A model generated the notes under the pieces. That model ran no database searches. It saw nothing but the letters and a program-made list of their open reading frames with translations, and was not told where the DNA came from. From a virus: a DNA stretch of 64,000 nt. Location of the stretch: positions 1-64,000 of the IMG/VR virus record IMGVR_UViG_3300003323_000724; one strand, written 5' to 3'. Positions 13,966-62,016 of the stretch are shown here, piece after piece; position 1 is the first letter of the stretch, and each line of letters opens with the position of its first letter. The position numbers and the translations under genes were made by a program.

Positions 13966-14877
13966 ATGACGGATCAGGAGGGACTACTTGCGGCCATTCT
14001 TCGCGATCCGGACGAGGATACCCCGCGACTGATGTACGCGGACGAGGTGCAGCATGCCGAGCCTGACCGTGCCGAGTTTATTCGGGTGCAGTGCGAGTTG
14101 CATCGCATTCGCCAAAGTACACTAAAGGCTCAACGTCGTGGTACAGAATGGCGCACCGCCTCTCGTGGCTACGCCGCATGTGCCCGCCACGAATCCGCTC
14201 TCCTCGCCGCTCACCCCGACTGGTTCCGGGTCGAGTGCCCGGCGTGCATCGACCATGATGGAATGAATCCATGCCCTGGCTGTGGCGGTAGAGGGCCGAT
14301 TTACCGCGACGGTCACGGAATCGAATCTTGCCGAGAGTGTGGCTCAATTGAGTCATCTATTTGCGATACGTGCTCCGGCATCGGCCACATCCCCGGCACC
14401 CCACGTCGCGGGTTCGCGTACTCGTGTGCGGCGACGATGGGGCAGTGCTTCGAGCAGTGGAATAACGGCGGCGACAATCACAGGTTCGTGAGCCGATTGC
14501 GATTCGTCTGGAGCGATCCAGATCAGCGCGGCACGAATCAAAGGTTGGATGCGTACCGCAACGATGGCTCAGTCGTTGCGCCTGGTGACTGGTTCCCCAC
14601 CGAATGGCTGTTGTGCTTGCTGCGAATTTACCCCACGCTGGAGGAGGTGCGGGTAAGCGATGCTGTTCCGTGGGATGCAGTGGGCGTGTCTGGATGGGCG
14701 ATGCACTCGGAAGAAGTTCACCAACCGCCGCATCGTATCCCAGAGATCCTGTACGACGCACTCACGGGCTGGAGTGATATTGATGACGGGTGGAAGTGGT
14801 ATTCCACTCATGACGCCGCCCACACCGCTCTTGCCCGCGCCGTCGTTGCTGTGGCCAAGAAGTACATACAGGAGTAG
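13966..14877 (+). CDS. TIGR02996 domain protein with CxxC Zn motifs
   Basis: GLLAAILRDPDEDTPRLMYADE...RAEFIRVQCEL; several CxxC motifs. Confidence 0.85.
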   Translation: MTDQEGLLAAILRDPDEDTPRLMYADEVQHAEPDRAEFIRVQCELHRIRQSTLKAQRRGTEWRTASRGYAACARHESALLAAHPDWFRVECPACIDHDGMNPCPGCGGRGPIYRDGHGIESCRECGSIESSICDTCSGIGHIPGTPRRGFAYSCAATMGQCFEQWNNGGDNHRFVSRLRFVWSDPDQRGTNQRLDAYRNDGSVVAPGDWFPTEWLLCLLRIYPTLEEVRVSDAVPWDAVGVSGWAMHSEEVHQPPHRIPEILYDALTGWSDIDDGWKWYSTHDAAHTALARAVVAVAKKYIQE

Positions 14878-15248
14878 TTGATGGAAATTGGAGATAAGTG
14901 GCTGGAAGTGGAATCGAACCGGGTTATTGTAATCGCCACCAAAAACGGACCTAATTCACCGTGGTGGTACTACGAGGACGACCCGAAGAAAACTTACTGG
15001 CACTGTTGCATCGAAGACTTCATTTTATGGGATCGATTTAAGAGGATTTGATGATTCCCAAAAAGGTTTATGACGCAGCGGTTCGAGTTTACATTCTGTC
15101 CTCAACCGACCTGTTTGCAGACGACGAAACCGTTCGAGTGTGGGCAAAACAGAGATGGCCCAACGCCGCAGTCGATGACGGCTGTCCGTGTCAAGTTGTG
15201 TGGTGGGTAATGTCAATTGCTGCTCAGGACGGCCACGAGTGAAACCCA

Positions 15249-15500
15249 ATGAAACGAAAACGGGTGTGTGATGCAGCAGTGGAAGTTCTCAGAGAGACCA
15301 AAAATGAGGCGGTTATGTGGGGAGACAGCGGCTTGTTGCATTTAATTGCGGAACGGGCGGGAATTGCACACCGTGCATGGGAAACCGAAGACCAAATCAT
15401 TGCAGCCCTATCTAAAACACCGGGACTGCTGATTCCTGGACACACACTGAATGGACGCAATCGTCGGGTTCGGATCTTTCGATTGCCGGAGTCGAAATAG
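15249..15500 (+). CDS. Hypothetical protein (winged-helix-like)
   Basis: Operon packing; overlaps the helicase start. Confidence 0.5.
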   Translation: MKRKRVCDAAVEVLRETKNEAVMWGDSGLLHLIAERAGIAHRAWETEDQIIAALSKTPGLLIPGHTLNGRNRRVRIFRLPESK

Positions 15501-31876: not shown

Positions 31877-31967
31877 GCCGTGTTAGTTTAGTGGAAGAAC
31901 ATTCCCCGCAAGGGAAAGGCGGAATCTCGACTGACGAGTCGGGTAGGTTCGATACCTCCACACGGCT
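31877..31967 (+). tRNA. Atypical tRNA-like element (Cys-like: GCA in loop, U discriminator, long variable arm)
   Basis: Acceptor GCCGTGT/ACACGGC, TA, D-arm GTTT-AGTGGAA-GAAC, stem TTCCC-CGCAA-GGGAA, T-arm GG(T)AGG-TTCGATA-CCTCC. Confidence 0.6.
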
Positions 31968-32073: not shown

Positions 32074-33105
32074 ATGCACACAGTCAACCGAGACGAATTG
32101 CTGAAGCAGCTGCAAACGATCGAGCCGGGTAGGTCCAAGAATCCACAAGTGGAACAGTCCGATTGCTTCGTGTTTGATGAAGGCTCCGTAATGACCTTCA
32201 ACGCGGAAATTTTCTGCCGCGCGATGGGGACCGGCTTACCGGACGATTTCAAAGCGGCCGTCAACGGCTCTCGCCTTCTCGAAGTTCTCGATAAGCTCAC
32301 TGAGGAAGAGATCCAAATCGGCTTGCGGGGTGGGAGCTTTGTGATCCGGTCCGGGTCTCGAACGGAAGTGAAACTCCGCACCCAAGCTAAAATCACGCTC
32401 CCGCTCGATGAAGTAGCCCCACCCCAGAAATGGAACAAACTACCCGAGTCGTTTGGGGACGCGGTGGCTCACGTTTGTAAGATCCCGAGTGGGGACCAGT
32501 TCATCACGTCCTCGGTGAACCTGACCCCCGACCACATCGAGGGAACCAACCGAATCCAGGTCGTTCGGCACGCCTTCAAAACGGGACTGGAAAACACCTT
32601 TCTCGTTCGCGCCAAGTCACTTGCGCACGTTGCGAAACTGGGCTTGATTCGGGTGGGCGAAACGGAACAATGGGTACACTTTCGGTCCAAGTCCTTAATC
32701 TTTTCCTGCCGCCGTCACGTTTGCCCCGAGTACCCCGAATTGGGTCAGTATTTCGACTTCGAGGGGACGGAAATTGAGTTTCCCCGTGGCGCTGAGCCGG
32801 CTGCGGCGATTGGAAACATCTTTGGTAAAGAGGACAAGGACGACCCGTCTGTAGACGTGGTGATCGAGGACGGAAAGATGACGATCGAGGGTTGCGGGTC
32901 GCAGGGCGAAGCCCGGGTCGTTCTCGACACGGAACACAAGGGGCCGCGACGGGAATTCCGGATGCACGCGGGAATGCTGGAACACATTGTGAAGCAGTAC
33001 CAGCGGTGCGAGTTCGGGGACGGCCGGTTGCGGGTGGTCGGGGACAACTGGTGGTTTTTTTCCTGTCTCCCCGCACCCAAGCGGGAACGACAAACGGAGG
33101 AATGA
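32074..33105 (+). CDS. Sliding clamp (DNA Pol III beta-like)
   Basis: 343 aa; VNRDELLKQL start, EGTNR, YPEL..YF motifs; located in the replication cluster. Confidence 0.7.
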   Translation: MHTVNRDELLKQLQTIEPGRSKNPQVEQSDCFVFDEGSVMTFNAEIFCRAMGTGLPDDFKAAVNGSRLLEVLDKLTEEEIQIGLRGGSFVIRSGSRTEVKLRTQAKITLPLDEVAPPQKWNKLPESFGDAVAHVCKIPSGDQFITSSVNLTPDHIEGTNRIQVVRHAFKTGLENTFLVRAKSLAHVAKLGLIRVGETEQWVHFRSKSLIFSCRRHVCPEYPELGQYFDFEGTEIEFPRGAEPAAAIGNIFGKEDKDDPSVDVVIEDGKMTIEGCGSQGEARVVLDTEHKGPRREFRMHAGMLEHIVKQYQRCEFGDGRLRVVGDNWWFFSCLPAPKRERQTEE

Positions 33106-33548
33106 TGGATGTAGTGGAACAGGAAGAAGCCGAATTCACCAGACAGATTCTCGAACGGCCGGACGACGTGACAACTCGATTAGTTTTTGCGGACTGGCTT
33201 GATGAACACGGAAGGAAGGTAGAGGCGAAATACCTGCGGGACATTCGGAAGCACAAATTCATTCGACTGGTGGGAATCTGCGGCGGATGGGCACTAAAGC
33301 CCCAGTGGGCGGTGGATCGGGGCAAAAGATTGGATTTGGATTACACGCCAAAGGAAGAATGCAACGGACACAGCGAACGTTGGAAATACTGGGACTGGCG
33401 GTTTAGGTGTGGGTGGAAGGTTCCGGCTCACGTAGTCCATTACGGGTACTCGATGGCGGTTACGTGGTTTGGGGTGTACGTGTGGGAATACTTGGACGAT
33501 TTGAGTAATCGAATGCCTTATTGGAACAGAGATGAAAGAGCTGTTTAG
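33102..33548 (+). CDS. TIGR02996 domain protein
   Basis: EAEFTRQILERPDDVTTRLVFADWLDEHGRKVEAKYLR. Confidence 0.85.
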   Translation: MMDVVEQEEAEFTRQILERPDDVTTRLVFADWLDEHGRKVEAKYLRDIRKHKFIRLVGICGGWALKPQWAVDRGKRLDLDYTPKEECNGHSERWKYWDWRFRCGWKVPAHVVHYGYSMAVTWFGVYVWEYLDDLSNRMPYWNRDERAV

Positions 33549-34752: not shown

Positions 34753-34759
34753 GGAACCA

Positions 34760-35554: not shown

Positions 35555-35570
35555 TTATTGGAGAATAACT

Positions 35571-46603: not shown

Positions 46604-47554
46604 ATGACTAGTGAAATCGATCTGCTGAGGGCGTATGCGGCCAAGCCGGAAGAGGAGGAGTTCTATCGCGGGCTGCTCCTCGATTACTACTTGGAGAACG
46701 ATCCGGAGCGAGCGGAGTTCCTGAAGCTTCACAGTCAGTTAAAGGGAATGAATTGTCCGTTGCATCTTTGCACTAAGCCACTGTTTGGTGCTGACAAAAG
46801 ATTCAACTGGGCTGGGACTTGTACAGAATGTACTAAAGATTCGTGGTGTGTGTTCCATTCGGTTGAACAAGACATTGAATTGATTCTCCAAAAGAATCGC
46901 GATCGGTGGCTTCGGGTCCGCTGTCCCGAGTGCATTGCGGGCCGTGTGGTTGACGTCTCCACCGGAACCCGATCGGGCTGCAAGACGTGCATGAGTACCG
47001 GTGACCTATGTCGGTTCACCCACCCCGGAACGGCCAGTCAGGACCAATTCGATGTCGAGCGGAAGAACGGGTTCCCGTACAAGGTGACTGGGGCTAAACA
47101 CGCGGACGTGTTTAGGCAGATGACCAAATTGACCGAAACCAAATGTAAGGACTGCAACGGTTATGGGCGGGTGCGTAACGATTGGTTTGCTGGGGATGAG
47201 GGAAGCCGAAAATGCGTTCGTTGCGAAGGAATGGGACGTTTTGCCGGGTTCTCAAGTTTCTACTGGGAGCCGACAGAGGTTGCGGTTGCGTGGCTGACAC
47301 ACCACCCGACAGTGAGGGAGATCGAGGTATCTGATGTTAGGCCATTGAACGTAAGTTGGATGCCGGATATGCCCCAAGTGTTCCGGAACGATAACTGGGA
47401 ACCGCAGAGCCATTGGTGGATCGTCGGGGAAGTTTATGACCGTATGGAAACGGACAGTCTGGACACGCTGGGGACCGGGGTGGTTGCCAGAAGGTGGAAC
47501 CGCCAAGACCACAGTCGGGCTGTGGCGGACTGGGTGCGATCATTCGTGAAATAG
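46604..47554 (+). CDS. Degenerate TIGR02996 domain protein with CxxC Zn motifs
   Basis: LLRAYAAKPEEE..R.LLLDYYLENDPERAEFLKL; architecture like 13966-14877. Confidence 0.75.
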   Translation: MTSEIDLLRAYAAKPEEEEFYRGLLLDYYLENDPERAEFLKLHSQLKGMNCPLHLCTKPLFGADKRFNWAGTCTECTKDSWCVFHSVEQDIELILQKNRDRWLRVRCPECIAGRVVDVSTGTRSGCKTCMSTGDLCRFTHPGTASQDQFDVERKNGFPYKVTGAKHADVFRQMTKLTETKCKDCNGYGRVRNDWFAGDEGSRKCVRCEGMGRFAGFSSFYWEPTEVAVAWLTHHPTVREIEVSDVRPLNVSWMPDMPQVFRNDNWEPQSHWWIVGEVYDRMETDSLDTLGTGVVARRWNRQDHSRAVADWVRSFVK

Positions 47555-47654: not shown

Positions 47655-48047
47655 ATGGAAACGACAACTACTAAAACGTGTAAGCAATTGTATGATGCTA
47701 ACCCCGTCTTCCGCGAGATGGTGGACGTATGGGTAGAACACCGGTGGTGCCCGGCCGAGATGCAGGATGTGCTCTTGGAGGAGGGATTGGAGCACGCGGC
47801 GGACTGCGCTAAGTGGTGTTACGAGACGGAGGAGCGGGAGGGTCAGATTGATAAAGGCCCCGGTAGAGTTTACCCCTATTGGGTAGCCTGGAAATCGCAC
47901 TGGTGGGTGAGAGAATGTCAAGACTACTTTCCTCATAACAAAGTACCCCCAAAGAACTTACCGTCGGTGAATGATGAAATGTGGAAGCACAGCAACCACC
48001 GAGAGGCAATCCTAGCCCTTCTCGACGCATGGAGGATCGCCCAGTGA
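47655..48047 (+). CDS. Hypothetical protein (weak TIGR02996-like segment)
   Basis: EMQDVLLEEGLEHAADCAKW. Confidence 0.6.
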   Translation: METTTTKTCKQLYDANPVFREMVDVWVEHRWCPAEMQDVLLEEGLEHAADCAKWCYETEEREGQIDKGPGRVYPYWVAWKSHWWVRECQDYFPHNKVPPKNLPSVNDEMWKHSNHREAILALLDAWRIAQ

Positions 48048-48319: not shown

Positions 48320-48628
48320 ATGCAATCTGAACTCCAACTACTGACCAAGAGCGTTCGGGAGAACCTGACCGAACTGGGAATTGACGTGCTGGCGGACAAG
48401 CTGCAAGACCTTGACAGGGAACGGGATGCGATGTTGTTGCGGAGACGTAAAGTCAGATGGCAGAAGACGATGCAGAAAAGATGGGAGTCGATGGAACTAC
48501 TCACTTGGCGGTTTAGTGAAAGGATTACGAGACAGGAGATGTTGCAGATGTCTCTGGAAGCCATTCAGCGTGACGCAACGTGGTCGATGAGTATGTACTT
48601 AACTCGATTTGAAAAGGAGCCGAAATGA
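48320..48628 (+). CDS. Hypothetical protein (weak TIGR02996-like N-terminus)
   Basis: LLTKSVRENL......VLADKLQD..RERDA.LLR. Confidence 0.6.
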   Translation: MQSELQLLTKSVRENLTELGIDVLADKLQDLDRERDAMLLRRRKVRWQKTMQKRWESMELLTWRFSERITRQEMLQMSLEAIQRDATWSMSMYLTRFEKEPK

Positions 48629-48877: not shown

Positions 48878-49651
48878 ATGGCGAACAAGAAGAAGCTCGA
48901 ATGGACCCCGCAGGTTCCCGGTGAGATCGAGTATGACATCGATCTGACGGAGGAGGAGGTTACGTTCATCAAGTGGTACTGCATAAAGCCAAACGTGGCT
49001 TACGCTTACCGCAAAACACATCCCGAGTGCAAGCAGCGGATGGAGCTGGCCTGGAAGCGGGGCACGAACCTCTATAACCGCCCCCACGTTCGCAAGGAGA
49101 TCGACGCGGCCCAGAGCGCGGTTGCGATTACGAAGGACTTGAGGACTGATGAAACCCTCATGGAAGTGAAGGCGATTGCGTTCTCGGACCCTATTGACTT
49201 GTTTGACGAGAAGGGCCAACCACTCCCACTACATGAAATACCGTTCGAGGTGCGTAAAGTCATTAAGGGTTTCAAGTTACGGTCAACCAAGACGGAAACG
49301 ATCAGCAGCGGGAAGAAGACGAAGAAGGTCACATACGAGATCCTCGAATATATCCCTTACGACAAGATCGACGCATTGCAAATCATCTGCAAGCACTTGG
49401 GGATCAACAAGGAGATCCCGCCTTTGGAGGCGCTGATGAACTTGCTGCCCAAGAACGTAGCGGAGAAGTTGCGGAAACTGCTTGCTGGGGAAGTAGTTAA
49501 GTCACAAGAACAGAGAAAAGAACCGGAGGAGAAAAAGAATGGACCGGCCGCTAGTAGTGCTCAGCAAGAAGACGGGGTACGGCAGAACTCCGGACACGGC
49601 GACGGTGTATGTGAACCGGGAGGGACTGGCGGACTTGAAGAAGTTGATTGA
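48878..49651 (+). CDS. terS: Terminase small subunit
   Basis: LT.....FI..Y....N...AY, L...P.V...I, E...IAFSD..DLFD..G...PL.E.P, DK..AL..I.KHLG. Confidence 0.85.
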   Translation: MANKKKLEWTPQVPGEIEYDIDLTEEEVTFIKWYCIKPNVAYAYRKTHPECKQRMELAWKRGTNLYNRPHVRKEIDAAQSAVAITKDLRTDETLMEVKAIAFSDPIDLFDEKGQPLPLHEIPFEVRKVIKGFKLRSTKTETISSGKKTKKVTYEILEYIPYDKIDALQIICKHLGINKEIPPLEALMNLLPKNVAEKLRKLLAGEVVKSQEQRKEPEEKKNGPAASSAQQEDGVRQNSGHGDGVCEPGGTGGLEEVD

Positions 49652-50121
49652 GTCCCTGAACACGAAAACACTGGAATTCAAAGCGGTTTCGGAAGTGGTG
49701 GGCAGGATTCCCGTGTTTCAGGACGGGGACTGGTCGTGGCTCGAAATTCGCACTTGTAGTCACGAAGGGTTCAATTGCGGTGGGAAGCCTTGTAGATGTG
49801 GGTGCCAAAAGGAATTCGAGCAGATCGAAGACAAGTACAGAGCCGCTGAAGGATTTGAGTACCGAACTGATAGGGACTGACTAATGATAATCGACCGCTT
49901 GCTCGGAGTGATGTGGATCGACACGGGAAATCAGCGTTTTTACTGGAAAACCCCACCAGATTACTACGAGTGGGGCGGTCCCAAGATCGTCCGAGAGTGG
50001 CAGCGGTTCACATCGAATTTTACCCACAAGCCCCGGTGGACGTTCTTGCAGACTGGTGCCGGGGGCGAGTTCGTGCCGGCGGATCAAGTGGACTGGTGGA
50101 CCGAAGCAATGAAGGAAACAC

Positions 50122-51141
50122 ATGGAAACCAACACGATTGACCTGCTCCGGGAAATCATCCTGAACCCGGACGATGACGCACTGCGGCTCATCTACGCGG
50201 ACAAGATCGAGGAGGATGATCCGAAGAACGCGGACCGGGCGGAATTCATTAGGTTGCAAGTAGAACGAAGCAGACTAGAGGACCAAGAGTGCAAATACGA
50301 CTGTCGATCGCGGATCGATTATCGATGCAAATGGTGCAATTCCATCGATAAGGGAGATGGATTACTAGGCCGAAACCAGCAATGGTGTCCGTGGACGTGG
50401 GACGACAATCAGCGGACTCCTTTGCCTGTTTTCTGGTCCCGTGGTTTCATCGAATCGATCTCAGTTCCGGCGGACGTGTGGATCGCGAATCACTACAAAA
50501 TCGCGTGGAACGAGGGGCAGGCCACGTGGTGCCCAACGTGTGCCGGCAAGTGCGGACACATAATGGGGACTTCGGACCAGTATCGGAGTCCGGCCAATTG
50601 CATGACCGAAGGAGAGTTTAAACGGGACGCGGGTAAAGGATGGAGGTCCCTAAAACCGCATCCGACTTGGAAACGATGTGAGCAATGTGACGGCGGAAGT
50701 GTTCCGCGACCGTTACCCAAAACCGCCCACCCGATTCGGAAGGTGGAAATCACGACGAGTCCGGCGATTAACCATGAAAATGCTCGTGATGGGCGAGAAC
50801 GTGCTTGGTCTAGCTGGGGGATTTTAAAGGAATGGTTGGACCCTAGACCTTATCCAAACGGAGGGTATTTTCCTCCCGACCGTGTTTTTGCGGTGTTACA
50901 GCAGGGTTGTGAGTATTGGTGGCCCCGCATCGAATTTACGTTCCGAGAGCGGCCGTGGGAAACAGAAAGACATTGGGTGAATGTGAACTTTGGTACTGGG
51001 GGTAGGACGGACTGGGTAGAGGCGGGAGAAGCCATTTTGGTGGGTCATCAAATTGCCGCAGATTCGCAAGGCAGAGCCGTCCGTGTTCGTGTCGGTGATT
51101 ACATTGTTGGTCACGCAATTTCAAACTCCCAGACGCGATAA
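50122..51141 (+). CDS. TIGR02996 domain protein with CxxC Zn motifs
   Basis: LLREIILNPDDDALRLIYADKIEE...RAEFIRLQVE; WSRGFIESI; HPIRKVEIT. Confidence 0.85.
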   Translation: METNTIDLLREIILNPDDDALRLIYADKIEEDDPKNADRAEFIRLQVERSRLEDQECKYDCRSRIDYRCKWCNSIDKGDGLLGRNQQWCPWTWDDNQRTPLPVFWSRGFIESISVPADVWIANHYKIAWNEGQATWCPTCAGKCGHIMGTSDQYRSPANCMTEGEFKRDAGKGWRSLKPHPTWKRCEQCDGGSVPRPLPKTAHPIRKVEITTSPAINHENARDGRERAWSSWGILKEWLDPRPYPNGGYFPPDRVFAVLQQGCEYWWPRIEFTFRERPWETERHWVNVNFGTGGRTDWVEAGEAILVGHQIAADSQGRAVRVRVGDYIVGHAISNSQTR

Positions 51142-51165
51142 TCCCTTCGCTTCCCCAATCATTTC

Positions 51166-54100
51166 ATGCTAAACTGGCTCCATTGGGACACTCAACACCA
51201 ACTCGGAGCCAGTTCGATGGCCGATCCGTACCGCCTACCCGTCTGGGACTACTCCGGGACGTTCGCTCAGGGTAAGTTTTTAGAACCCATCAAGCGACCG
51301 GACGGTAAGTGGTATTGGGCATCTGCCCTAACCCAGCCTAGACACCAGCTCGAAAACAAGGCCGAACTGACGGACTTCCTAGGCATTCATCCGGACAGCA
51401 CTGACTTCGGTTCGCACCACATCGATAGCCATTTAGGTCAACCACTCTCCTCACAGCACGTCTGGATGCACACGGGGGGTGCCGAAGGCGAACCCCCCGT
51501 GTTGGAGCAACCGGACTGGCGTCCAACGGATACAATTCCGGAAGACTTTTACGCTTACGAGGCTGCAAACGGCCCTAGCTTCGCACAGGAAGAACAAACT
51601 CAGCATCAGATAGGCAACTGGTCAGCGGGGCAACAAAACGCAATAGAGACGCAATACGGCGATTCTGGGCAGCACCCACTTGCGGATGAGGATGGTTGGT
51701 TGGTTCAGGACGAATCGAATCCCGTGGAGTTGACCAAGCTCGGACACGACGACCACTTGCGATATCTTCGTCCGTACCACAACGGTCACGATTGGGTTTG
51801 GCGAATTCATCGAATGGAACCGGAAGCAGCAGATTGGCTCGCACTCACTGAGTTGTTCGGAAAAGATCCCATGCATATGACTCCGGAAGAATTCAAGCAC
51901 ATTGGAACTCCGGACCATCAGCACCGACCCCTGACTCCGGACGAGAGGATTGTTGCCGGAATCGACCCAATGCCGGAAGTCGATTGGCGCCCCAATGAAA
52001 CCATTCCCGAAGACTTTTACGCGTTTTCCCGTGGGGAATCTCCCGTGAACTACAACTGTTACTCGTTCCACGACGTGATTGCCAAGCTCCAGCGGGCGGA
52101 CCAGCCGGTTACGTACAACGAAAACGCATTCCTCGAACAGATCCGTCAGAACCCCAATGATTTTACAAACAGGGCCGTCTTTGCGGATTGGCTAGAAGAT
52201 CAGGAACACCCGGACCGCAACCTGTTGGACGCCCTCCGATCGCACCAAGGGTTCGGAACTATCAGTCGAACCCCCCAAGGGTTTCACCTCGATACCCGTT
52301 CCCGCGCCCAACAGGTCGGCGAACGGGTCGGTCGGGCGATGGCCGAATCCGCTGCTCAGTTCGGAGATGACCTGCGAGACAGTCCGAACGGGTTTGAATT
52401 GGACTCACAGGACGCAGACCAATTACACGCGGCCGGCATAGAGTTCGGTTCTCCCGAGTGGAGGGAAGCAGAAAACCATGCCGAACGAGCGTTTTTGGAA
52501 CATTTTAACCCCCCGACACAAAACGACGGGGATGAAGGAATGGTTGATTACGGCTGGTCCGCTCCTCTCCGAACGCGGCCAAAAACGAATGCGTTGGCCC
52601 AGTTTCATGCGCCGGGGTACGAAGTGATTGAGGACCAGCCGCAGCAGATGCAATGGGAAGAGGGCTTACTGCCCCCAACGGCCGTTTCCAAGCACCCCAC
52701 GCAGGAATTTGCAGGCCAATCACTGCGGCCGAACGAACAGGGAACCGTGTGGGACAATCCGTTCCAGCCGTGGGGACAGGACTATGAGCCGGAAACGGGA
52801 CTGTTTCAGCTCCCTTATGCGGAACAATTGGACGACGGGATGTTCGATCAGGAAGGGTTTTTGTTGACTCCCAAAGGAGCGAGCCGTCGTGCGGTCCGGG
52901 GTATTCACTTCGATCCCGAAGTTGGGAATTATCGACTTCATGGGTACTGGATCAATCGGGACGATCAGGGCAATCCGCAGTGGTGGAGCAGAGGACCATC
53001 GATGTGGAAAGGACCGTCTCCCGAACACATTGAGGGCATGATCTACGAACCGGGGGACACTCGGGATCATATGCTTTTCGGTGAAAATCCGGATCGAACC
53101 CCTGTTTCTCCCGAGCACCTGTGGGCACTTGGATTAGGGGGCCAACCGCCGCAAGCCCCCGACGCACCCGATTGGAGAACTCCTGACACAGTTCCAGAGG
53201 ACTTTTATGCGTACGGGAGGGCTGATTACGGCTGGGGCCAAACTCTGAAGTCTGCGTTCGATCTCGGTAAGCAGTACTGGCCCCAGATCGCCGCAGCCGC
53301 ACCGCACGCTTGGAACGCAGCCAAGTCTTGGTGGAACGGAGAAGAAGGATCGTCCCAGCACGCCCAAAACGCTTGGGATTCTTGGAACTCGGCTACGCAG
53401 AACGATGATGATGGGGACATGGTAGGGTATGGCGACTTGTCATCCGAAAAAGCACGGGAAATTCTACATGACGGGACCGTTCACGGGCACCCGATCACGG
53501 ACAAACAGAGGCGATTCTTTGGGTGGAAATCGCACCAGACGGATTATGCTGACGAACTGAACCAGGACGAGAACAATGCGTTCATCCAAACCATCCACGC
53601 AAACCCGCTGGATGCAACGAATCACCTCGTTCATTCGGACTGGCTCCGGGACCGGGGGCACCATGATGAAGCGGAGTTCCGACAAGCGATGGGGGAATGG
53701 GTGAAGGGTTGGAACAGGATTCAAGATTTGCACAAACCCAGATTGGACCCGGATCGACCTTGGATGGTTCCGTTATCGTTTCTTCCTGGTGGAATAGTTG
53801 CCGATAACCTCCCTGGTGCAAGATTTACTGTAGCCCGTGATTACACGGAGCAGGCCAGACAACTGGACCCTCACACTGGAATGCGATTTAGAGACACGTA
53901 TCACTACCCCTCCTACCCCCACATGGAAGAAGCCTTCCGCCGGGCCTTCCATCAGGGTCGAGGGGAACAAACCCAAGCCTCGATGTACGCCGATCCGTAC
54001 CAGTACCCGAGTTTCACCGATATGAGGCTCCCGCCGGCCACTCCCGGGACGGGCGAAATGCTCGATCCCGTCCAACTCGGGTTCACCCAGTGGACCGCAC

Positions 54101-56229
54101 CGGGCGGACTCGCACGCATCGCCGGGCCACAGTTCATGCCTACCGATTGGCACTCTCCGTCAATCATGTGGAGCCAGCCGAACGGGGAGGACTACGACCA
54201 GTTCGGCCAAACTGCCGGCGATCGTGGGGAATACGCACGGGCGGACTACTTCCTTCCCGCTATTGCAGCCGCAGCGGAATCGTTAGCTCCGGCAATGGCT
54301 CGATCTGCCACAATCGGAGCTGCTTCGGACGCGGCCGGGGACCTGTTTGGCGGTGGTGATGACCAGCAAGACTACGCAGCCTACGGAATGGCCCAGTACG
54401 GCGATGAGGAAGACAACCAAGCGTTCCTGAACGCAATCCACGCCAACCCGCTCGACGCAACCAACCACCTCGTTCACGCAGATTGGTTGGACGAACGGGG
54501 GCAGCACGGGGAAGCGGCGTTTCGGCGGGCGATGGGGGAGTGGGCTGCGAGAACCAGTCCCCATCTTCTGGACGTTACTCCATCTCGTGTCGAAGGAACT
54601 CACGGAATTTCGACACGAGCAATTCCTTCGTGGGTCAACGGGAGGATAGGAGTATCCTCAACAAGCTCCGATCCAAATATCGGCTACTCCCCTAATTCCC
54701 TTTGGACTTATTTCCACGGGTTCGGTCCAATGGAAGAAGCCTTCCGCCGGGCCTTCCACGCGAACCAAAACACGGTCCAACCGGGCCAAATACCCGCCGA
54801 TCTGGGGGACGACAGCGACGTGAGGATGGGTGGGGGCGAACAACCGGTTGAGTTTGCCGCTTACAGCCAGATACACACCACTCACCCCGATGACGAGTCC
54901 GGCTGGGGCGAACCGGACTTTCGCCGGGAGGACGAGATTGCTAACTGGGTGAGTTCCCCGATCCCGCACCCGCACGACAACTTTCCGGGGACGCCGAGCG
55001 CTTACGCCGGCCACGTCAACCAACCCAACTGGGGCAACGTTGACGGAATCATGCGGGCGATTCCCGAGAACAAGTTCGTCGGTGGGAAGTACGGGTACAA
55101 GTCCGCTGCGAACTACGAGGGCGAAGAGGAAGCCTTTCAACAGGCCATTCACCAGAACCCGTTCGAGTTCGTTAACCACGGGGCATATGCGGACTGGCTC
55201 CGAGAGCAAGGAAGGCACGAGGACGCCGATTTCCGAACGAACATGGGGGAATGGATGCAATCCCGGGCAGCGGGGCATGATAATGGATTTCTTCCCGTGC
55301 CGACAGTCGTTCGGCACACGGAAGCCCCGCAGTGGGCCAAGGGGAAGATTCGCATCGAGAACATTTTCACGCCCCATGCCAAAGACGCTCCGTTCCGGTG
55401 GGACTCGCGACACGTCGGGTGGGACAGTTACCCGCAGATGGAAGAGGCTCTCCGACGTGCGCACGATTTCGTCGGTCCTCCGGTTCAGCAACACGAAGAA
55501 ACACCGAACTGGTTCCGAGATCGGGAGTACCTAAGTAATGATGCCCATCCGATGAACTACGAGCACGACTGGATGGGGCCGACGGACTATGCTCCACCGG
55601 AAAGTCTCTATGCTGCTTACGGCGATCCGGGCGACAACGGCACCACCGCATCGGCCGGGAACACGCAGGAGTGGAACTACCAGCCGAAGAATTATTGGGA
55701 AACAACCCGGTACGGCGATTTGACTTCGATGGAATATGGGGCATATTTGGGGTACGCGGACGATCAGTACGAAGACGAGCACCAGCCCGAATCGGAGATT
55801 CCAGTGGAAGAAACTACCCCGACCAGACCAGAGTTGTTAAACGGTGCTTTGGTTTCTGCTGCACTCAAGCCGTCTCGTAAGCGGGGGCCGAACGTGGGCC
55901 AATTTGATCGGGCTGCAATGGGAGCACTTGGAGACCACCTCCAAGAAATCGGGAATCCACTAGGAGTTGCCGTTTCCCATTTCGTCCGAACCGGACAGAA
56001 CATCCCGTTTTCGTCCCTGTCGGGAACTTCGGAACACGAAGTGTCAACGGCCGATGGTTCACACCAAGTGTTCGGTCGGCGTGGGATCAGTCGAGACGGG
56101 AAGCCGATTGTGTGGACTGTGATTAAGCAAAACAAACCACGCCAACACCCAGACGGACGAATTATTTGGGATAGTGACAAGTCCCACAGTTTTGCTGTTC
56201 CGGCTGAGTTGTTCGACCAACCACAATAA
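51166..56229 (+). CDS. 1687-aa modular acidic protein with four internal TIGR02996-like cassettes
   Basis: Four AF...I..NP.D..N..V.ADWL units, three DWR...T.PEDFYA repeats, and recurrent Tyr-small-residue junction motifs; 2 nt upstream of terL. Confidence 0.85.
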   Translation: MLNWLHWDTQHQLGASSMADPYRLPVWDYSGTFAQGKFLEPIKRPDGKWYWASALTQPRHQLENKAELTDFLGIHPDSTDFGSHHIDSHLGQPLSSQHVWMHTGGAEGEPPVLEQPDWRPTDTIPEDFYAYEAANGPSFAQEEQTQHQIGNWSAGQQNAIETQYGDSGQHPLADEDGWLVQDESNPVELTKLGHDDHLRYLRPYHNGHDWVWRIHRMEPEAADWLALTELFGKDPMHMTPEEFKHIGTPDHQHRPLTPDERIVAGIDPMPEVDWRPNETIPEDFYAFSRGESPVNYNCYSFHDVIAKLQRADQPVTYNENAFLEQIRQNPNDFTNRAVFADWLEDQEHPDRNLLDALRSHQGFGTISRTPQGFHLDTRSRAQQVGERVGRAMAESAAQFGDDLRDSPNGFELDSQDADQLHAAGIEFGSPEWREAENHAERAFLEHFNPPTQNDGDEGMVDYGWSAPLRTRPKTNALAQFHAPGYEVIEDQPQQMQWEEGLLPPTAVSKHPTQEFAGQSLRPNEQGTVWDNPFQPWGQDYEPETGLFQLPYAEQLDDGMFDQEGFLLTPKGASRRAVRGIHFDPEVGNYRLHGYWINRDDQGNPQWWSRGPSMWKGPSPEHIEGMIYEPGDTRDHMLFGENPDRTPVSPEHLWALGLGGQPPQAPDAPDWRTPDTVPEDFYAYGRADYGWGQTLKSAFDLGKQYWPQIAAAAPHAWNAAKSWWNGEEGSSQHAQNAWDSWNSATQNDDDGDMVGYGDLSSEKAREILHDGTVHGHPITDKQRRFFGWKSHQTDYADELNQDENNAFIQTIHANPLDATNHLVHSDWLRDRGHHDEAEFRQAMGEWVKGWNRIQDLHKPRLDPDRPWMVPLSFLPGGIVADNLPGARFTVARDYTEQARQLDPHTGMRFRDTYHYPSYPHMEEAFRRAFHQGRGEQTQASMYADPYQYPSFTDMRLPPATPGTGEMLDPVQLGFTQWTAPGGLARIAGPQFMPTDWHSPSIMWSQPNGEDYDQFGQTAGDRGEYARADYFLPAIAAAAESLAPAMARSATIGAASDAAGDLFGGGDDQQDYAAYGMAQYGDEEDNQAFLNAIHANPLDATNHLVHADWLDERGQHGEAAFRRAMGEWAARTSPHLLDVTPSRVEGTHGISTRAIPSWVNGRIGVSSTSSDPNIGYSPNSLWTYFHGFGPMEEAFRRAFHANQNTVQPGQIPADLGDDSDVRMGGGEQPVEFAAYSQIHTTHPDDESGWGEPDFRREDEIANWVSSPIPHPHDNFPGTPSAYAGHVNQPNWGNVDGIMRAIPENKFVGGKYGYKSAANYEGEEEAFQQAIHQNPFEFVNHGAYADWLREQGRHEDADFRTNMGEWMQSRAAGHDNGFLPVPTVVRHTEAPQWAKGKIRIENIFTPHAKDAPFRWDSRHVGWDSYPQMEEALRRAHDFVGPPVQQHEETPNWFRDREYLSNDAHPMNYEHDWMGPTDYAPPESLYAAYGDPGDNGTTASAGNTQEWNYQPKNYWETTRYGDLTSMEYGAYLGYADDQYEDEHQPESEIPVEETTPTRPELLNGALVSAALKPSRKRGPNVGQFDRAAMGALGDHLQEIGNPLGVAVSHFVRTGQNIPFSSLSGTSEHEVSTADGSHQVFGRRGISRDGKPIVWTVIKQNKPRQHPDGRIIWDSDKSHSFAVPAELFDQPQ

Positions 56230-56231
56230 CC

Positions 56232-57854
56232 ATGTCCGCCAACACATCCGATCTTGCCAAAGCACTGGCCCGGGTCTACGGCTCACGGGCCGTAGACCGC
56301 CTCGTTTCCACGCCCGTCGCCAGTTCGGACGACATGGCGAAGTACCACGACGATCCGGTGGGGTTCATCCGCGATGCGTTTGGAATAGACCTGACAATGC
56401 CGCAGTTGAACGCGGCATTGGCAATGCCCGGACGAATTAAAATCAATTCAGGGCACGGGTTAGGTAAAACTCTCCTGTGCGCCGCTCTTGCCATTTGGTG
56501 GTACGCGACCCGGAATCCCGGCGTGGTCATCATTACCGCACCCACCAGCCACCACATCACTACGGTTCTGTTTGCTGAAATTAGACTCCTGCTCGCCAAG
56601 TGTCGTATTAAACTGCCCGGGACCCTGTCGCCCAAGGCACCCCTCTTGTACGACTCACCGGAGCACTGGATCGAAGGATTTACGAGTTCATCGGGGGAAG
56701 GTTTCCAAGGTCGTCACCGCGCGAGCATGTTTTTCATCTTTGACGAGTGCGAAGACGTAGACGCGGTATATTGGCAAACTACCGAAACGATGTACAAGGA
56801 CGGAGAAGACCATGCTTGGCTTACCGTTGGTAATCCATTAACAACGTCTTCGCAAAGCTACCTTGAAGACTTGGCCGAACGGGAGGACGGAACGCCGAAA
56901 TGGAAGCAGTACGTATTGTCCTCGATGGATCACCCCAACATCATCGCTCAACTCAATGGTGAACCACCGCCGATACCCAACGCGGTTACGCTTCACCAAG
57001 TTAACCAGTGGGTCAAGGACTGGACCGATCCGGTTCAATTTGGCGACATCAAGCCATTGGACTTCGAGTGGCCCGTAGGATCACAGAAGTGGCGCAGACC
57101 ATCCCCGATCTTTAAGGGCCGCGTTCTCGGCATTCGACCGACGGAAGGGGTTGATACGGTTTGGGGCGCCGTTGTGTGGCAAATGGCCACGACACGAACT
57201 GCTAACCCCTCCGCTTGTTGGTGGGGCGAATACGGTATTACAATTGGTGTGGACGTTGCTATGTTCGGGGACGATTCAACGGCCATTCACCTTCGCAGTG
57301 GTCCGATGAGTTTGCTGCACGAGGAACACAACGGCTGGACACCTCAGCAAACGGCCGGTCGTCTGAAGGACTTGTGCGTTGAGTACGCTGACGTTTACAA
57401 CTCGTGGGCGGTGATCCCCACTCGTCCGCGACTGGAACCGTCTGACGTTAGCGTAGTTATCGAAGTGGATGGGTACGGGTATTCGGTACTGTCACACTGT
57501 GACGGGTTTGGTAACTGGTCCGGGTTTAAGGCCGGGGAAGCATCGACCGCTTTGGACCATAAGGGCCAGCCCCGGTACACGAAAAGACGGAGCGAGATGT
57601 GGTTCACCGGTAAGGAAAAGGCTATGGGGGGCCAAATGGACCTGTCGTACTTACCCCAAGACGTGTTGCAGAAACTTCGACTGGAACTGATGTCGTCCAT
57701 GTATTGGGCGACATCATCGGGGGCAATTCAGGTCGAAGAGAAAGTGGACATCAAGAAGCGGCTGAAAAAGTCCCCAGACGGGGCCGACGCACTGCTAGTT
57801 TGCTACGCGGACGTAACTTCGGATCTTCCAATGGCGATAATCAGGGGGGAGTAG
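56232..57854 (+). CDS. terL: Terminase large subunit
   Basis: SGHGLGKT (Walker A), IITAPT, FQGRH, FIFDE (Walker B), VGNP, IGVDVA.FGDDST, KKRL.KSPD.ADAL. Confidence 0.92.
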   Translation: MSANTSDLAKALARVYGSRAVDRLVSTPVASSDDMAKYHDDPVGFIRDAFGIDLTMPQLNAALAMPGRIKINSGHGLGKTLLCAALAIWWYATRNPGVVIITAPTSHHITTVLFAEIRLLLAKCRIKLPGTLSPKAPLLYDSPEHWIEGFTSSSGEGFQGRHRASMFFIFDECEDVDAVYWQTTETMYKDGEDHAWLTVGNPLTTSSQSYLEDLAEREDGTPKWKQYVLSSMDHPNIIAQLNGEPPPIPNAVTLHQVNQWVKDWTDPVQFGDIKPLDFEWPVGSQKWRRPSPIFKGRVLGIRPTEGVDTVWGAVVWQMATTRTANPSACWWGEYGITIGVDVAMFGDDSTAIHLRSGPMSLLHEEHNGWTPQQTAGRLKDLCVEYADVYNSWAVIPTRPRLEPSDVSVVIEVDGYGYSVLSHCDGFGNWSGFKAGEASTALDHKGQPRYTKRRSEMWFTGKEKAMGGQMDLSYLPQDVLQKLRLELMSSMYWATSSGAIQVEEKVDIKKRLKKSPDGADALLVCYADVTSDLPMAIIRGE

Positions 57855-60387: not shown

Positions 60388-60850
60388 TGAGAACCACTAA
60401 CGGGAGGACTGTGAATGGGAAATTGCGTGCTGACCGGAATGTACAAAGACGAACAGCCGGAACAGGTAACGTGGTGCGGCCGGAACGCGGGCAAACAAGA
60501 GTGGTTGTTCCAGTCTGCTTCACATGTTGCACTGAACGCTCGGAATCGCGGCAGCGTTTCTCCGTGTCGTAAGTGTATTGAGTCAATTATCAAAGCACTC
60601 CGAAAGGAGTTGAAATGACGCAAGCCGACCGAGCAATGTACGACGCCGGCAACGTATTTTGCGAAACGCGCAAAGCACTGGTGGATTTGGCAACCAAGAA
60701 GGGCATCAAGGACCGAGTGGTTTTTATGGTTGGCCGTGTCGCGTGGTACATCGACCCACCGAAGTCCGCCCGGAACTACGAGCACGACAACGGATTAGAC
60801 GGATGGGTAATCAGCTTCGGTTCTCGGCCGGAAGAGATCGAGGTGATCGA

Positions 60851-61456
60851 ATGAGTGTGCTCAAAGGATTAATGCGGAACATCTGCGAAAACCCGTTCGA
60901 TGACAACGCTCGGCTCGTACTGGCCGATTACTTCGATGAGAACGGAAAGCAATGGCACGCGGATCTGATTCGGTTGCAACTGCGAAAACCTAGTTTCCAA
61001 GAGGTTTACGATTTTGCAAAGGGACTGGGGACGAATCCAGAACCGAACCGAGAGTTCGGGGCATTTTACTTTGCCGAACTGGGGTGGATGTCTTCTCCCC
61101 TGCACCACTCGCACATTGTCAGCCGGGGTTTAATTGGGGGCATTCACACCGATACCAACACATTCCTTCGGTCCCCCGAGTTGGTTTTCACTAAGAACCC
61201 GATAGTTCACGTAGTGTTCCAAGACGTTTGGCCGTACATGGGTAGCGGTTCCCCCCAACTGCGAAGGACGACCAAACCAAAACCAATCGGCAGTCAAACT
61301 TCTTCGGTTCCTGCTGTGATTTATGATCGACTGCCGAAAGGACGTAACAGGTTCCGAACGCGACAAGACGTGACTCGGCTCCTTAGTCGGACCGCTGTGG
61401 ATTACGGGCGAGAACGAGCGGGGCTGCCAAAACTGAACTGGGAGGACGAACGGTGA
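60851..61456 (+). CDS. TIGR02996 domain protein
   Basis: GLMRNICENPFDDNARLVLADYFDENGKQWHADLIRLQ; SRGLI; NPIVHV. Confidence 0.85.
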   Translation: MSVLKGLMRNICENPFDDNARLVLADYFDENGKQWHADLIRLQLRKPSFQEVYDFAKGLGTNPEPNREFGAFYFAELGWMSSPLHHSHIVSRGLIGGIHTDTNTFLRSPELVFTKNPIVHVVFQDVWPYMGSGSPQLRRTTKPKPIGSQTSSVPAVIYDRLPKGRNRFRTRQDVTRLLSRTAVDYGRERAGLPKLNWEDER

Positions 61457-62016
61457 GCGACGGGGACGCACTTTTGAAGGCGATACTTGCGAACCGGGAC
61501 GATGACACACCGAGACTGGTGTACGCGGACTGGTTAACTGAGAACGGACAAGAGGCGAGAGCGGAATTCATTCGGGTGCAGGTGGAATTGATGCGTTGGT
61601 TGAAAGAGAACTCAGAAAGCCCCAATCGTGACCCAGACATTTATGGAGCGAGGGAAGGAATTTCTCGCATGAAGCAATTGTGGAACCTTCGAGCTTACCC
61701 ACCCGCACCTAAAGGATTCATTGCTTGTTTGGCCACAGATTATTTTGGATACCTTCCTTCGCACCGAGTGGCAGTTTACCGAAGAGGGTTTCCCCATCAG
61801 ATTTACTGCCCCACTGAAGATTGGTTGGAGTGTGCTGACGTGGTGTTTGGTCAATATCCAATTCAAAAAGTAAATCTAACTACTCACATCCCACTGGGCA
61901 ACCTATTCGATCTGTGCCGAAAGGCAGGATTGGGGGAATACCCCGGGAACCGGATTTCGTTCCATGAAGAGATCCTTGGCGGTATCTGGAAAGGGATCAA
62001 ATTCACACTCCCTTGA
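61453..62016 (+). CDS. TIGR02996 domain protein
   Basis: ALLKAILANRDDDTPRLVYADWLTENGQEARAEFIRVQVEL; YRRGFP; YPIQKV.LT. Confidence 0.88.
   Translation: MSDGDALLKAILANRDDDTPRLVYADWLTENGQEARAEFIRVQVELMRWLKENSESPNRDPDIYGAREGISRMKQLWNLRAYPPAPKGFIACLATDYFGYLPSHRVAVYRRGFPHQIYCPTEDWLECADVVFGQYPIQKVNLTTHIPLGNLFDLCRKAGLGEYPGNRISFHEEILGGIWKGIKFTLP

What the first reader, a model, noticed from the sequence alone, without database searches (positions are those of the whole stretch)
13966..62016. Large expansion of the TIGR02996 domain in a phage
Seen: seven stand-alone genes with an N-terminal TIGR02996 motif (13966, 22856, 33102, 46604, 50122, 60851, 61453), four copies in the giant protein, and weaker remnants (47655, 48320, 59464). 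Several share later motifs (RGF; HP/YP/NP-I..V), and three contain CxxCxG zinc insertions. Known: this domain is highly expanded in Gemmata-type planctomycetes, usually N-terminal to repeat domains, and its function is unknown. Inference: it indicates the host group and suggests the domain belongs to a host immunity or protein-targeting pathway that the phage floods with decoys or hijacks as an adaptor.
Basis: partly seen in the sequence, partly recalled or inferred. Interest (0 to 1): 0.7.

Follow-up and report, generated by a model that had tools for sequence, protein, structure and literature searches.

The report
Planctomycete-type domain family expanded in phage
An uncultured ~104-kb tailed phage, probably of Gemmata-like planctomycetes, carries eleven copies of a small host-type domain of unknown function: seven small proteins plus a giant acidic protein encoded between the two terminase genes; relatives fuse that giant's repeat unit to the phage portal, so it may be packed in the head and injected.

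Summary
The TIGR02996 HMM (cut-off 29 bits) hits six stand-alone ORFs and four sites in the 1,687-aa ORF. 46604 fails the HMM but is colinear with 13966 (E 3e-7). The three 'remnants' (47655, 48320, 59464) are not significant. The record is a real phage (terS, terL, Mu-type portal, tail fibre, replication genes).

Density is about 10 copies per 100 kb, against 0.1-0.8 in five bacterial genomes that carry the domain. The domain was found in 0 of 80 genomes sampled across that phylum, but in 15 of 31 from the Gemmata order, so the host inference is supported.

The case is not unique. 49 other IMG/VR records carry 1-14 copies, and this scan noted similar expansions on about ten other genomes. No paper and no GenBank phage has it.

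New here:
- Viral copies are shorter than bacterial ones.
- Only viral copies carry CxxC zinc ribbons (31/112 vs 0/113).
- Viral and bacterial copies mostly separate on a tree.
- The giant's 136-aa unit recurs up to 14 times in very acidic 1.6-3.7-kaa proteins, and sits in C-terminal extensions of Mu-type portals.

Fold: TPR-like three-helix head plus a small α/β body. Function is untested. My best guess is protein-binding decoys or adaptors, partly delivered with the virion.

The parts
13966..14877 (+). TIGR02996 protein, 303 aa. Head at residues 3-45, four CxxC (two of them CxxCxG) at 91-138, RGF at 148, then YPT..E.VRVSD. Start lies 4 nt after the stop of a J-domain gene.
   Evidence: TIGR02996 59.3 bits; motifs; neighbour PF00226
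22856..23437 (+). TIGR02996 protein, 193 aa. Head at 5-45, RGF at 105, no zinc ribbon.
   Evidence: 67.4 bits; C-domain profile E 0.004
33102..33548 (+). TIGR02996 protein, 148 aa. Head plus a Trp-rich ~100-aa tail with no RGF. Start overlaps the stop of the upstream ORF. It resembles the units of the giant protein only weakly beyond the head.
   Evidence: 57.4 bits; phrog_18306 1e-10; module HMM matches positions 4-50 only; BLAST to giant 1318-1403 E 0.011
46604..47554 (+). Diverged family member, 316 aa. Degenerate head, five CxxC (two CxxCxG), NGF at 155, HPT..E.EVSD.
   Evidence: No TIGR02996 hit; colinear with 13966, BLASTP E 3e-7; weak DnaJ_CXXCXGXG 14.7 bits, below cut-off
50122..51141 (+). 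TIGR02996 protein, 339 aa. Head at 8-49, RGF at 107, CxxC clusters inserted after RGF. Lies between terS and the giant ORF.
   Evidence: 45.5 bits; C-domain profile E 3e-13; best full-length relatives are in other viral contigs, including the terL-related phage G025
51166..56229 (+). Giant acidic protein, 1,687 aa, net charge -127, 8% Pro, 9% Gly. It carries four ~130-aa units, each a TIGR02996-type head plus a tail ending in a MEEA(F/L)RRA motif in units 2-4. It also has three DWR..T.PEDFYA(Y/F) motifs. Encoded between terS (48878-49651) and terL (56232-57854).
   Evidence: TIGR02996 136 bits, 4 stretches; composition and motifs; terS and terL
52117..52503 (+). Giant protein, unit 1 (weakest)
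   Evidence: module HMM iE 1.5e-9; TIGR02996 44.3 bits
53560..53979 (+). Giant protein, unit 2
   Evidence: module HMM iE 8e-34, HMM positions 5-134
54406..54780 (+). Giant protein, unit 3
   Evidence: module HMM iE 5e-34; TIGR02996 52.1 bits
55114..55467 (+). Giant protein, unit 4
   Evidence: module HMM iE 1.5e-25
60851..61456 (+). TIGR02996 protein, 201 aa from the ATG at 60851. Head, RGL in place of RGF, NPIVHVV.
   Evidence: 42.5 bits; full-length relatives in viral loci L012, L022 and L015
61453..62016 (+). TIGR02996 protein, 187 aa, the most canonical copy. Head at 3-46, RGF at 111, YPI..V.LTT, ending W.GI.F.LP. Start overlaps the stop of 60851.
   Evidence: 81.1 bits; 768 homologues, many full-length; AF2 model with pLDDT 83.6
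13255..13962 (+). J-domain (DnaJ) protein, 235 aa, directly upstream of 13966. This is context and a possible functional partner, not a family member.
   Evidence: PF00226 1.5e-23. The same J-domain gene followed by a TIGR02996 gene occurs in viral record G031, but only 4 of 50 TIGR02996-bearing records have a J domain

Best explanation
This is a phage-borne branch of the TIGR02996 family, present in two forms.

(a) Six or seven small proteins are encoded in the phage's replication operons and near terL. They have no evident signal peptide (by inspection only). Each has a conserved three-helix, TPR-like head at the very N-terminus, often one or two DnaJ-type CxxC zinc ribbons, and a small α/β 'RGF' body. 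In bacterial relatives that body continues into long LRR arrays. In the phage it stops.

(b) Four head-plus-tail units are strung on a 1,687-aa, very acidic, probably disordered protein encoded between terS and terL.

Proposed mechanism (inferred, not shown): these are protein-binding modules. The conserved head engages whatever the heads of the host's 40-80 TIGR02996-LRR proteins engage, either a common partner or each other. The shortened or altered bodies then make the phage proteins competitors or re-targeting adaptors in that host pathway. The giant protein would act as a multivalent sponge. Because relatives carry the same unit on the C-terminal extension of Mu-type portals (taken here, by analogy with solved portals, to face the head interior), the giant is probably packed in the head and reaches the cell with the DNA, before phage genes are expressed.

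Shown: family membership, copy number, viral nature, virus-specific architecture, portal fusions in relatives. Inferred: binding partner, decoy/adaptor action, packaging of the giant protein.
For: - Membership and counts.
- Viral record.
- Density is about 12 times the four dense bacterial genomes: 9.6 per 100 kb against 0.62-0.83 (a fifth has 0.08).
- Constant head on variable bodies. In 45 homologues the invariant columns are D18, R21, A25, D26, R36, A37, E38 and R41 in the head, plus R111 and G112, while the mean column identity is 18%.
- The head is three helices resembling 1.5 TPR repeats: Z 6.7, rmsd 1.8 A over 53 residues to 5fzq.
- Bacterial long forms are LRR proteins. Phage copies have no LRR hit and are shorter (median open frame 286 vs 397 aa, p 9e-11).
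- CxxC ribbons occur only in viral copies: 31/112 vs 0/113, p 4e-11.
- Viral and bacterial copies are clustered on the tree (15 label changes vs 42.6 when shuffled). The phage's own six copies do not group together, so they are old subfamilies shared among phages rather than a recent burst.
- The nearest ESM-Atlas clusters are 50-69% viral.
- The giant's unit has 257 relatives. They include acidic 1.6-3.7-kaa proteins with up to 14 units, some on contigs of about 100-105 kb.
- Four Mu-type portals carry the unit in their C-terminal extension. This phage's portal is of the same Pfam family.
- The giant gene lies in the packaging module, between terS and terL.
Against: - No partner is known, and no experiment or paper exists on the domain.
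- Nothing links the host family to defence. The one bacterial cluster I examined is among housekeeping genes.
- The invariant RGF co-varies with the head, so the head may be only a structural cap of the body rather than a free docking surface.
- The two closest terL relatives (G025, G008) have 2-3 copies and no giant ORF next to terL. The giant is therefore dispensable for this type of virion.
- This phage's own portal extension has no such unit, and no significant similarity to the giant beyond a 7-residue motif.
That they are phage genes rests on contig sizes only.
Confidence: 0.4

Rival explanations
1. An autonomous family of phage binder or inhibitor proteins. The variable bodies and zinc ribbons each bind a different host target, for example defence nucleases or other effectors. 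The head is merely a fold-capping element inherited from the host family. No shared partner with host TIGR02996 proteins is involved.
For: RGF is invariant together with the head, which suggests one structural unit. Full-length model pTM is 0.74 despite a low-confidence linker. Bodies are highly diverged (14-18% mean column identity). The zinc ribbons are virus-specific additions. Subfamilies are old and phage-specific.
Against: The head is by far the most conserved part and keeps charged, probably exposed residues across phage and host copies. The giant's units and 33102 keep the head without the RGF body. So the head is not simply an RGF/LRR cap.
Confidence: 0.25
2. A virion-assembly role. 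The giant acidic protein would be a scaffold-like or DNA-mimicking internal head protein needed for packaging. The small proteins would be assembly chaperones or co-chaperones, working with the phage J-domain protein and host Hsp70.
For: The giant and 50122 lie between terS and terL. The unit is fused to portals in relatives. The giant has net charge -127. A J-domain gene sits directly upstream of 13966, whose zinc ribbons are of the DnaJ CxxCxG type, and the same gene pair occurs in G031.
Against: Most small copies lie among replication genes, not structural genes. Only 4 of 50 TIGR02996-bearing viral records have a J domain at all. The terL relatives lack the giant. The family is abundant in bacterial chromosomes outside prophages.
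Confidence: 0.15
3. F-box-like adaptors. The three-helix head followed by an LRR-type body would recruit targets to a host degradation machine, as eukaryotic FBXL proteins do and as poxvirus or Legionella mimics do.
For: Architecture is analogous: a ~45-aa helical N-domain directly followed, in host forms, by RNI/FBXL-type LRRs (PF13516, PF24758). The nearest Pfam-bearing Atlas cluster is auto-named after a plant F-box/LRR protein (score 0.77). TIR1 appears among weak Foldseek rows (E 2.2).
Against: No F-box Pfam hit at E<=0.1. The head's top structural matches are TPR and F-box chains are not among the 50 rows shown. No Skp1 was found in five host-type genomes, although that search rang in no control genome either.
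Confidence: 0.05
4. Not a phage feature: host DNA wrongly binned or assembled with a phage, or host-derived passenger genes with no role.
For: The domain is typical of bacterial genomes, where tandem clusters also occur (4 copies in 2.3 kb in G054).
Against: The copies are spread over 48 kb of one contig. They are on the same strand as, and often start-stop coupled to, phage replication and packaging genes. Complete records with terminal repeats carry 7 and 14 copies (G012, G049). Viral copies form their own clades and have their own architecture.
Confidence: 0.03

Closest known systems
TIGR02996 / rpt_mate_G_obs ('repeat-companion' domain) proteins of Gemmataceae, Isosphaeraceae and some Myxococcota
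   Same: The same ~45-aa N-terminal head, scoring above the curated cut-off. The same RGF / HP(V/I)..V.L segment follows it. Full-length 30-40% identity to short bacterial members, such as proteins a source labels as Singulisphaera, Isosphaera or Gemmataceae.
   Different: Bacterial members mostly continue into long LRR arrays, and none of 113 had CxxC clusters. Phage members are shorter, lack detectable LRRs, often carry zinc ribbons, and include poly-unit giants and portal fusions.
phrog_18306 (PHROGs v4, unknown function)
   Same: Its first ~45 profile positions match the heads of 33102 (1e-10), the giant (1e-11), 61453 and 22856. So a (pro)phage family with this head is already catalogued.
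   Different: Only the head matches. The PHROG has no function assigned. No GenBank phage record matched 61453 by tblastn.
Head-packaged cargo fused to phage head proteins (MuF/portal-fused polymorphic toxins; from my own knowledge of that literature, not checked here)
   Same: A variable module attached to a head protein, so that it would travel in the capsid. Here the unit sits on Mu-type portal C-termini in relatives, next to 2H-phosphoesterase-like domains in two of them.
   Different: No toxin or enzyme domain is recognisable in the giant protein or in the units. In this phage the units are on a separate protein, not on the portal.
Lineage-specific expansions of small binding or immunity domains that viruses recruit (SUKH superfamily; PMC3113570)
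   Same: Large paralogue families in Gemmata (21 SUKH paralogues are reported there), tandem arrays of divergent copies, and recruitment by DNA viruses.
   Different: Unrelated fold and sequence. No adjacent toxin genes were seen for TIGR02996.
TPR helical hairpins
   Same: The head superposes on 1.5 TPR repeats: Z 6.7, rmsd 1.8 A, 53 residues.
   Different: No TPR Pfam hit. It is a single unit, not an array. A Z below 8 for a helical motif may reflect only a common arrangement.

Membership tests
TIGR02996 (NCBIfam domain model) | HMM score at or above the curated cut-off of 29.05 bits | tested here: met
   Six stand-alone ORFs score 42.5-81.1 bits. Four stretches in the giant score 34.6-52.1 bits each in the six-frame search. 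Not met by 46604, 47655, 48320 or 59464.
TIGR02996 (NCBIfam domain model) | Domain lies at the N-terminus, ahead of a repeat region (LRR or WD40) | tested here: not met
   The N-terminal position holds for all stand-alone copies (head starts at residues 3-8). But no LRR or WD40 Pfam hit occurs in any phage copy at E<=0.1. In the giant the heads are internal. Membership of the domain family stands; the typical architecture does not.
Short 'head + RGF body' subfamily (defined here from alignment A1) | Invariant RGF and HP..V.L after the head, with a C-terminal W.G..F.LP ending | tested here: met
   C-domain profile: 61453 at 2e-22, 50122 at 3e-13, 22856 at 0.004, 60851 at 0.04. 13966 and 46604 fit by motif and colinearity only. 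33102 and the giant's units do not belong.
Poly-unit acidic giant proteins (defined here) | Several ~130-aa head-plus-tail units in a long, strongly acidic, Pro/Gly-rich chain without other Pfam domains | tested here: met
   Four units, net charge -127. Relatives have 3-14 units and net charge -80 to -260, and three of them have no Pfam hit.
F-box / SCF adaptors | F-box profile match, and a Skp1 partner in the host | tested here: not met
   No F-box Pfam hit at E<=0.1. Skp1 (PF01466) was not found in five host-type genomes, but that search rang in no control either, so that half is inconclusive.
DnaJ cysteine-rich (CXXCXGXG) zinc-finger domain, PF00684 | Profile match above 32.7 bits; four CxxCxGxG repeats | tested here: not met
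   The best hit is 14.7 bits (E 0.039) in 46604. 13966 has four CxxC, of which two are CxxCxG. The resemblance is at motif level only.
TPR repeat | Helix-turn-helix pairs that superpose on TPR units, and a TPR profile match | tested here: inconclusive
   Structural Z 6.7 / rmsd 1.8 A / 53 aa to a designed TPR. No Pfam TPR hit.
Leucine-rich repeat (body of the short forms) | LRR profile match or LRR solenoid fold | tested here: inconclusive
   The C-domain-only model (pLDDT 81) has a best Z of 4.0. Roco LRR N-termini score Z 3.3 and 2.8, among many unrelated α/β folds. Some homologues of similar length do carry PF13516.
Virion-packaged / injected cargo | Physical presence in the capsid | not testable with these tools
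   Indirect evidence only: portal fusions in relatives and gene position between terS and terL.

The most novel reading that the evidence does not exclude
The TIGR02996 head is a homotypic adaptor, in the manner of death-fold or 'effector-associated' domains. It would wire together a Gemmatales-specific network of 40-80 LRR/WD40 sensor proteins. Phages of these bacteria would have evolved a dedicated counter-measure: short headed proteins, and a head-packaged, multivalent 'poly-head' protein injected with the DNA, which caps or sequesters the host heads and jams the network before it can signal.
Probability: 0.12. Interest if true: 0.85.

Novelty: new variant of a known kind. Interest (0 to 1): 0.55.

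Why it matters
TIGR02996 is one of the largest paralogue families in Gemmata-like planctomycetes (43-77 matches in each of three planctomycete genomes searched), yet no paper in the searched library mentions it.

Phages of these bacteria keep their own diverged, architecturally distinct versions. Some carry up to 14 per genome, some string up to 14 units on one acidic giant protein, and some fuse a unit to the portal. This is the first functional handle on the family, because whatever the head binds must matter during infection.

It gives concrete experiments:
- Pull down partners with a 45-residue head.
- Look for the giant protein in virions.

It also offers a sequence marker for assigning uncultured phages to Gemmatales-type hosts, for which almost no phages have been isolated. 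If the injected-sponge idea is right, it would be a new kind of phage counter-measure.

Tried and rejected
- **Literature.** 'TIGR02996' and 'repeat-companion domain' returned no paper. Two Aravind-lab papers that mention Gemmata expansions do not treat this domain.
- **Sequence search of PDB chains.** Nothing at E<=1.
- **Foldseek against PDB.** Nothing at E<=0.001 for the full model or the C-domain model. VIA second look and wide search gave only TPR-like rows for the head. For the body they gave Z<=4 rows to assorted α/β folds, including restriction-endonuclease-like ones. I do not read a nuclease into this, because no acidic or Lys catalytic residues are conserved.
- **GenBank phages (INPHARED), tblastn with 61453.** No match.
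- **Close terL relatives in IMG/VR.** None found by pattern scan. Searching records already in hand found G025 and G008, which have no giant ORF beside terL.
- **A general link between J domains and TIGR02996.** Rejected: only 4 of 50 records have a J domain.
- **F-box/Skp1 idea.** No support.
- **Bacterial cluster L083 as a prophage or defence island.** Rejected: purF-like and DUF6065 neighbours.
- **The 'remnants' 47655, 48320 and 59464.** Not significant with three different profiles. 47655 and 48320 do have homologues in other TIGR02996-rich viral loci, but outside the head.
- **Similarity between the giant protein and the portal extension.** None beyond a TQAS.YA heptad.
- **Pfam on the presumed protease/scaffold and capsid ORFs.** No hits, so the 'Tyr cleavage motif' idea from earlier notes could not be tested.
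Full report
**What is there.**
The window is the first 64 kb of a 103,939-bp IMG/VR virus record (linear, CheckV completeness 77%). It encodes a normal tailed-phage gene set:
- Replication: helicase, replication initiator, DnaB, a split family-A DNA polymerase, clamp loader, SSB and UvsX-like recombinase, plus a primase-like protein, 5'-3' exonuclease and dCTP deaminase.
- Packaging and structure: terS at 48878-49651, terL at 56232-57854, a Mu-type portal and a J-like tail fibre further on.

**The observation.**
The NCBIfam model TIGR02996 (cut-off 29.05 bits) hits six of the seven stand-alone ORFs at 42.5-81.1 bits. It hits the 1,687-aa ORF four times. A six-frame search of the whole record finds exactly these ten places and no others.

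The seventh gene, 46604, is not seen by the model. It is nevertheless colinear with 13966 from the first residue through the zinc clusters, the (R/N)GF motif and the HPT..E..VSD segment (E 3e-7). I accept it as a diverged member.

The three 'weaker remnants' (47655, 48320, 59464) are not significant with TIGR02996 or with two profiles built here. I drop them.

The secondary details hold:
- RGF or a variant is present in six genes.
- A C-terminal profile is significant in 61453 and 50122 and marginal in 22856 and 60851.
- CxxC/CxxCxG clusters occur in exactly 13966, 46604 and 50122.

**Is the density unusual?**
The phage has about 9.6 HMM hits per 100 kb. Five bacterial genomes that carry the domain have 0.08-0.83 per 100 kb (three Gemmataceae, one Singulisphaera, one Archangium). 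Local tandem clusters do exist in bacteria, for example four copies in 2.3 kb. The one cluster I annotated lies among housekeeping genes, not in a prophage.

The case is not unique among viruses:
- A pattern scan of IMG/VR found 72 loci.
- The 49 records I then searched whole hold 1-14 matches each.
- Complete, terminally redundant genomes are among them, with 7 (42.9 kb) and 14 (109.8 kb) matches.
- This scan's notebook lists similar expansions on about ten other genomes.

Against that, no GenBank phage record matched and no paper in the library mentions the domain.

**Host.**
- The best bacterial matches are almost all Gemmataceae.
- The domain was found in none of 80 genomes drawn evenly from the phylum of a Gemmata genome.
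- It was found in 15 of 31 genomes from its order, at a much stricter threshold.
- It was found in none of 14 control genomes.

A Gemmatales-type host is therefore the reasonable inference. Isosphaeraceae and some Myxococcota also carry the domain. No direct link such as a CRISPR spacer or a prophage was tested.

**Anatomy of the small proteins.**
61453 has 768 homologues of similar length, many aligned end to end at 30-40% identity. The alignment shows four parts:
- an almost invariant head (D18, R21, A25, D26, R36, A37, E38, R41);
- a variable and often Cys-rich linker;
- an invariant RGF;
- HP(V/I)..V.LTT and a W.G..F.LP end.

AlphaFold2 with this alignment gives pLDDT 83.6. The head is three helices that superpose on 1.5 TPR repeats (Z 6.7, rmsd 1.8 A, 53 residues). 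That is a modest score for a helical motif.

The body (β-β-β-α-β-α-α-β) was also folded alone (pLDDT 81). It has no convincing structural neighbour: best Z 4.0, and LRR N-termini at Z about 3.

Longer relatives continue from this body into LRR arrays: PF13516, PF12799, PF00560, PF13855, PF23598 and PF24758. None of the phage proteins has a detectable LRR. None shows an evident signal peptide by inspection, since the head starts at residues 3-8.

**Viral copies differ from bacterial ones.**
- Open frames with the head are shorter in viral records: median 286 against 397 aa, with 12% against 49% at 400 aa or more (p 9e-11).
- Of the head-bearing ORFs in the fetched loci, 31 of 112 viral ones have two or more CxxC within 200 residues after the head. 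None of 113 bacterial ones does (p 4e-11).
- Complete C-terminal ends of the short form are mostly viral.
- The nearest ESM-Atlas clusters are 50-69% viral.
- On a quick maximum-likelihood tree of 127 head-plus-body sequences, the viral/bacterial label needs 15 changes, against 42.6 when shuffled (0 of 500 shuffles as low).
- On the same tree this phage's six copies need 5 changes, so they do not group together. Support values are low because the alignment is short.
- The best full-length match of each copy is in another viral contig, not in a paralogue.

The set is therefore a collection of old subfamilies shared among phages. It is not a recent local burst or a fresh capture from the host.

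**The giant protein.**
It lies between terS and terL, together with 50122. It has net charge -127 and is rich in Asp, Glu, Pro and Gly. It has three DWR..T.PEDFYA(Y/F) motifs and four ~130-aa units, each a head plus a tail that ends in MEEA(F/L)RRA in units 2-4.

An exhaustive search with unit 3 found 257 relatives:
- About 85 of the 150 listed are stand-alone proteins of up to about 220 aa.
- Many are giants of 1.6-3.7 kaa with 3-14 units and net charge down to -260.
- Three of these giants have no Pfam domain at all.
- Several sit on contigs of 101-105 kb, the size of this phage.

Among nine mid-sized relatives, four are Mu-type portal proteins carrying the unit in their C-terminal extension. 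Two of those also have a 2H-phosphoesterase-like domain. This phage's portal belongs to the same Pfam family. It has a 500-aa extension with an HExxH motif but no unit.

I take portal C-termini to face the head interior, by analogy with solved portals. The fusions would then place the unit inside capsids in those phages. This is the basis for proposing that the giant is head cargo. An earlier follow-up on another genome reached the same idea. I verified the portal fusions independently, but not its claim of toxin fusions.

**A local lead.**
The gene directly upstream of 13966 is a J-domain protein, and 13966 carries DnaJ-type CxxCxG knuckles. The same J-gene-then-TIGR02996-gene pair occurs in one other record (G031). 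Only 4 of 50 TIGR02996-bearing records have a J domain. This may matter for that one copy, but it does not explain the family.

**Mechanism.**
What is shown is a constant, charged, TPR-like head on variable and, in phages, truncated or zinc-decorated bodies. It is present in many copies per phage and occurs in a multivalent form in the packaging module.

The best reading (confidence about 0.4) is that these are protein-binding modules that use the head to enter the same interaction as the host's TIGR02996-LRR proteins. They would act as competitors or adaptors, and the giant would be an injected multivalent sponge.

The rivals are:
- independent binders whose head is only a cap (0.25);
- an assembly or chaperone role (0.15);
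- F-box-like adaptors (0.05);
- an artefact or passenger genes (0.03).

None can be settled by sequence analysis alone. The decisive tests are virion proteomics and head pull-downs.

**Verdict.**
The host inference is supported. The functional idea is plausible but untested. The finding is a new, virus-specific variant of a known but uncharacterised domain family. It recurs in many uncultured phages and is absent from the literature.

Noticed in passing
window 48878-57854: terS (Terminase_2, 48878-49651) and terL (56232-57854) are separated by 6.6 kb. That stretch holds a small ORF, the TIGR02996 gene 50122 and the 1,687-aa acidic protein, which is an unusual interruption of a packaging module.
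   Followed up: partly
window 13255-13962: Phage-encoded J-domain (DnaJ) protein of 235 aa. Homologues occur in three other TIGR02996-bearing viral records. In G025 it sits just upstream of terL.
   Followed up: partly
window 33532-38006: The family-A DNA polymerase is split into two ORFs: 33532-34752 (matches phrog_17 positions 480-826) and 36426-38006 (positions 826-1233). They are separated by two ~264-aa ORFs, the first of which has an HTH_17/MerR-like domain.
   Followed up: no
window 28507-29757: A 416-aa ORF among the replication genes with no PHROG hit. Other notes of this scan read it as a Cas12f-like protein with a mini CRISPR array downstream. Not examined here.
   Followed up: no
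window 62223-62759: A 178-aa protein with a GmrSD_N / DUF262 domain (7e-10), directly after the last two TIGR02996 genes.
   Followed up: no
window 31877-31967: ARAGORN calls a 91-nt tRNA-Cys (GCA). Rfam finds no family at gathering score anywhere in the window, so the call is doubtful.
   Followed up: partly
L001:8712-11702 (G000 72712-75702, outside the window): The portal protein is 996 aa. The Portal_Mu domain ends near residue 476. A Pro/Gly/Met-rich linker and a ~400-aa extension with an HExxH motif follow. Pfam finds no domain there.
   Followed up: partly
window 53434-53523 (giant protein residues 757-786): A 30-residue segment is 77% identical to a translated stretch in an unrelated viral locus (L029). 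A related mid-sized protein (P0265) carries DUF6496. This may be a separate small conserved motif embedded in the giant.
   Followed up: no
window 52001-56000: The giant ORF has higher G+C (0.578 against about 0.53) and almost no GC skew, unlike the flanking + strand genes (skew 0.12-0.17). This may reflect its amino-acid make-up or a separate origin.
   Followed up: no
window 47655-48047 and 48320-48628: These two small ORFs are not TIGR02996 members. Each has a homologue in another TIGR02996-rich viral record (L043/L044 and L008), so they may belong to other gene families shared by this group of phages.
   Followed up: no
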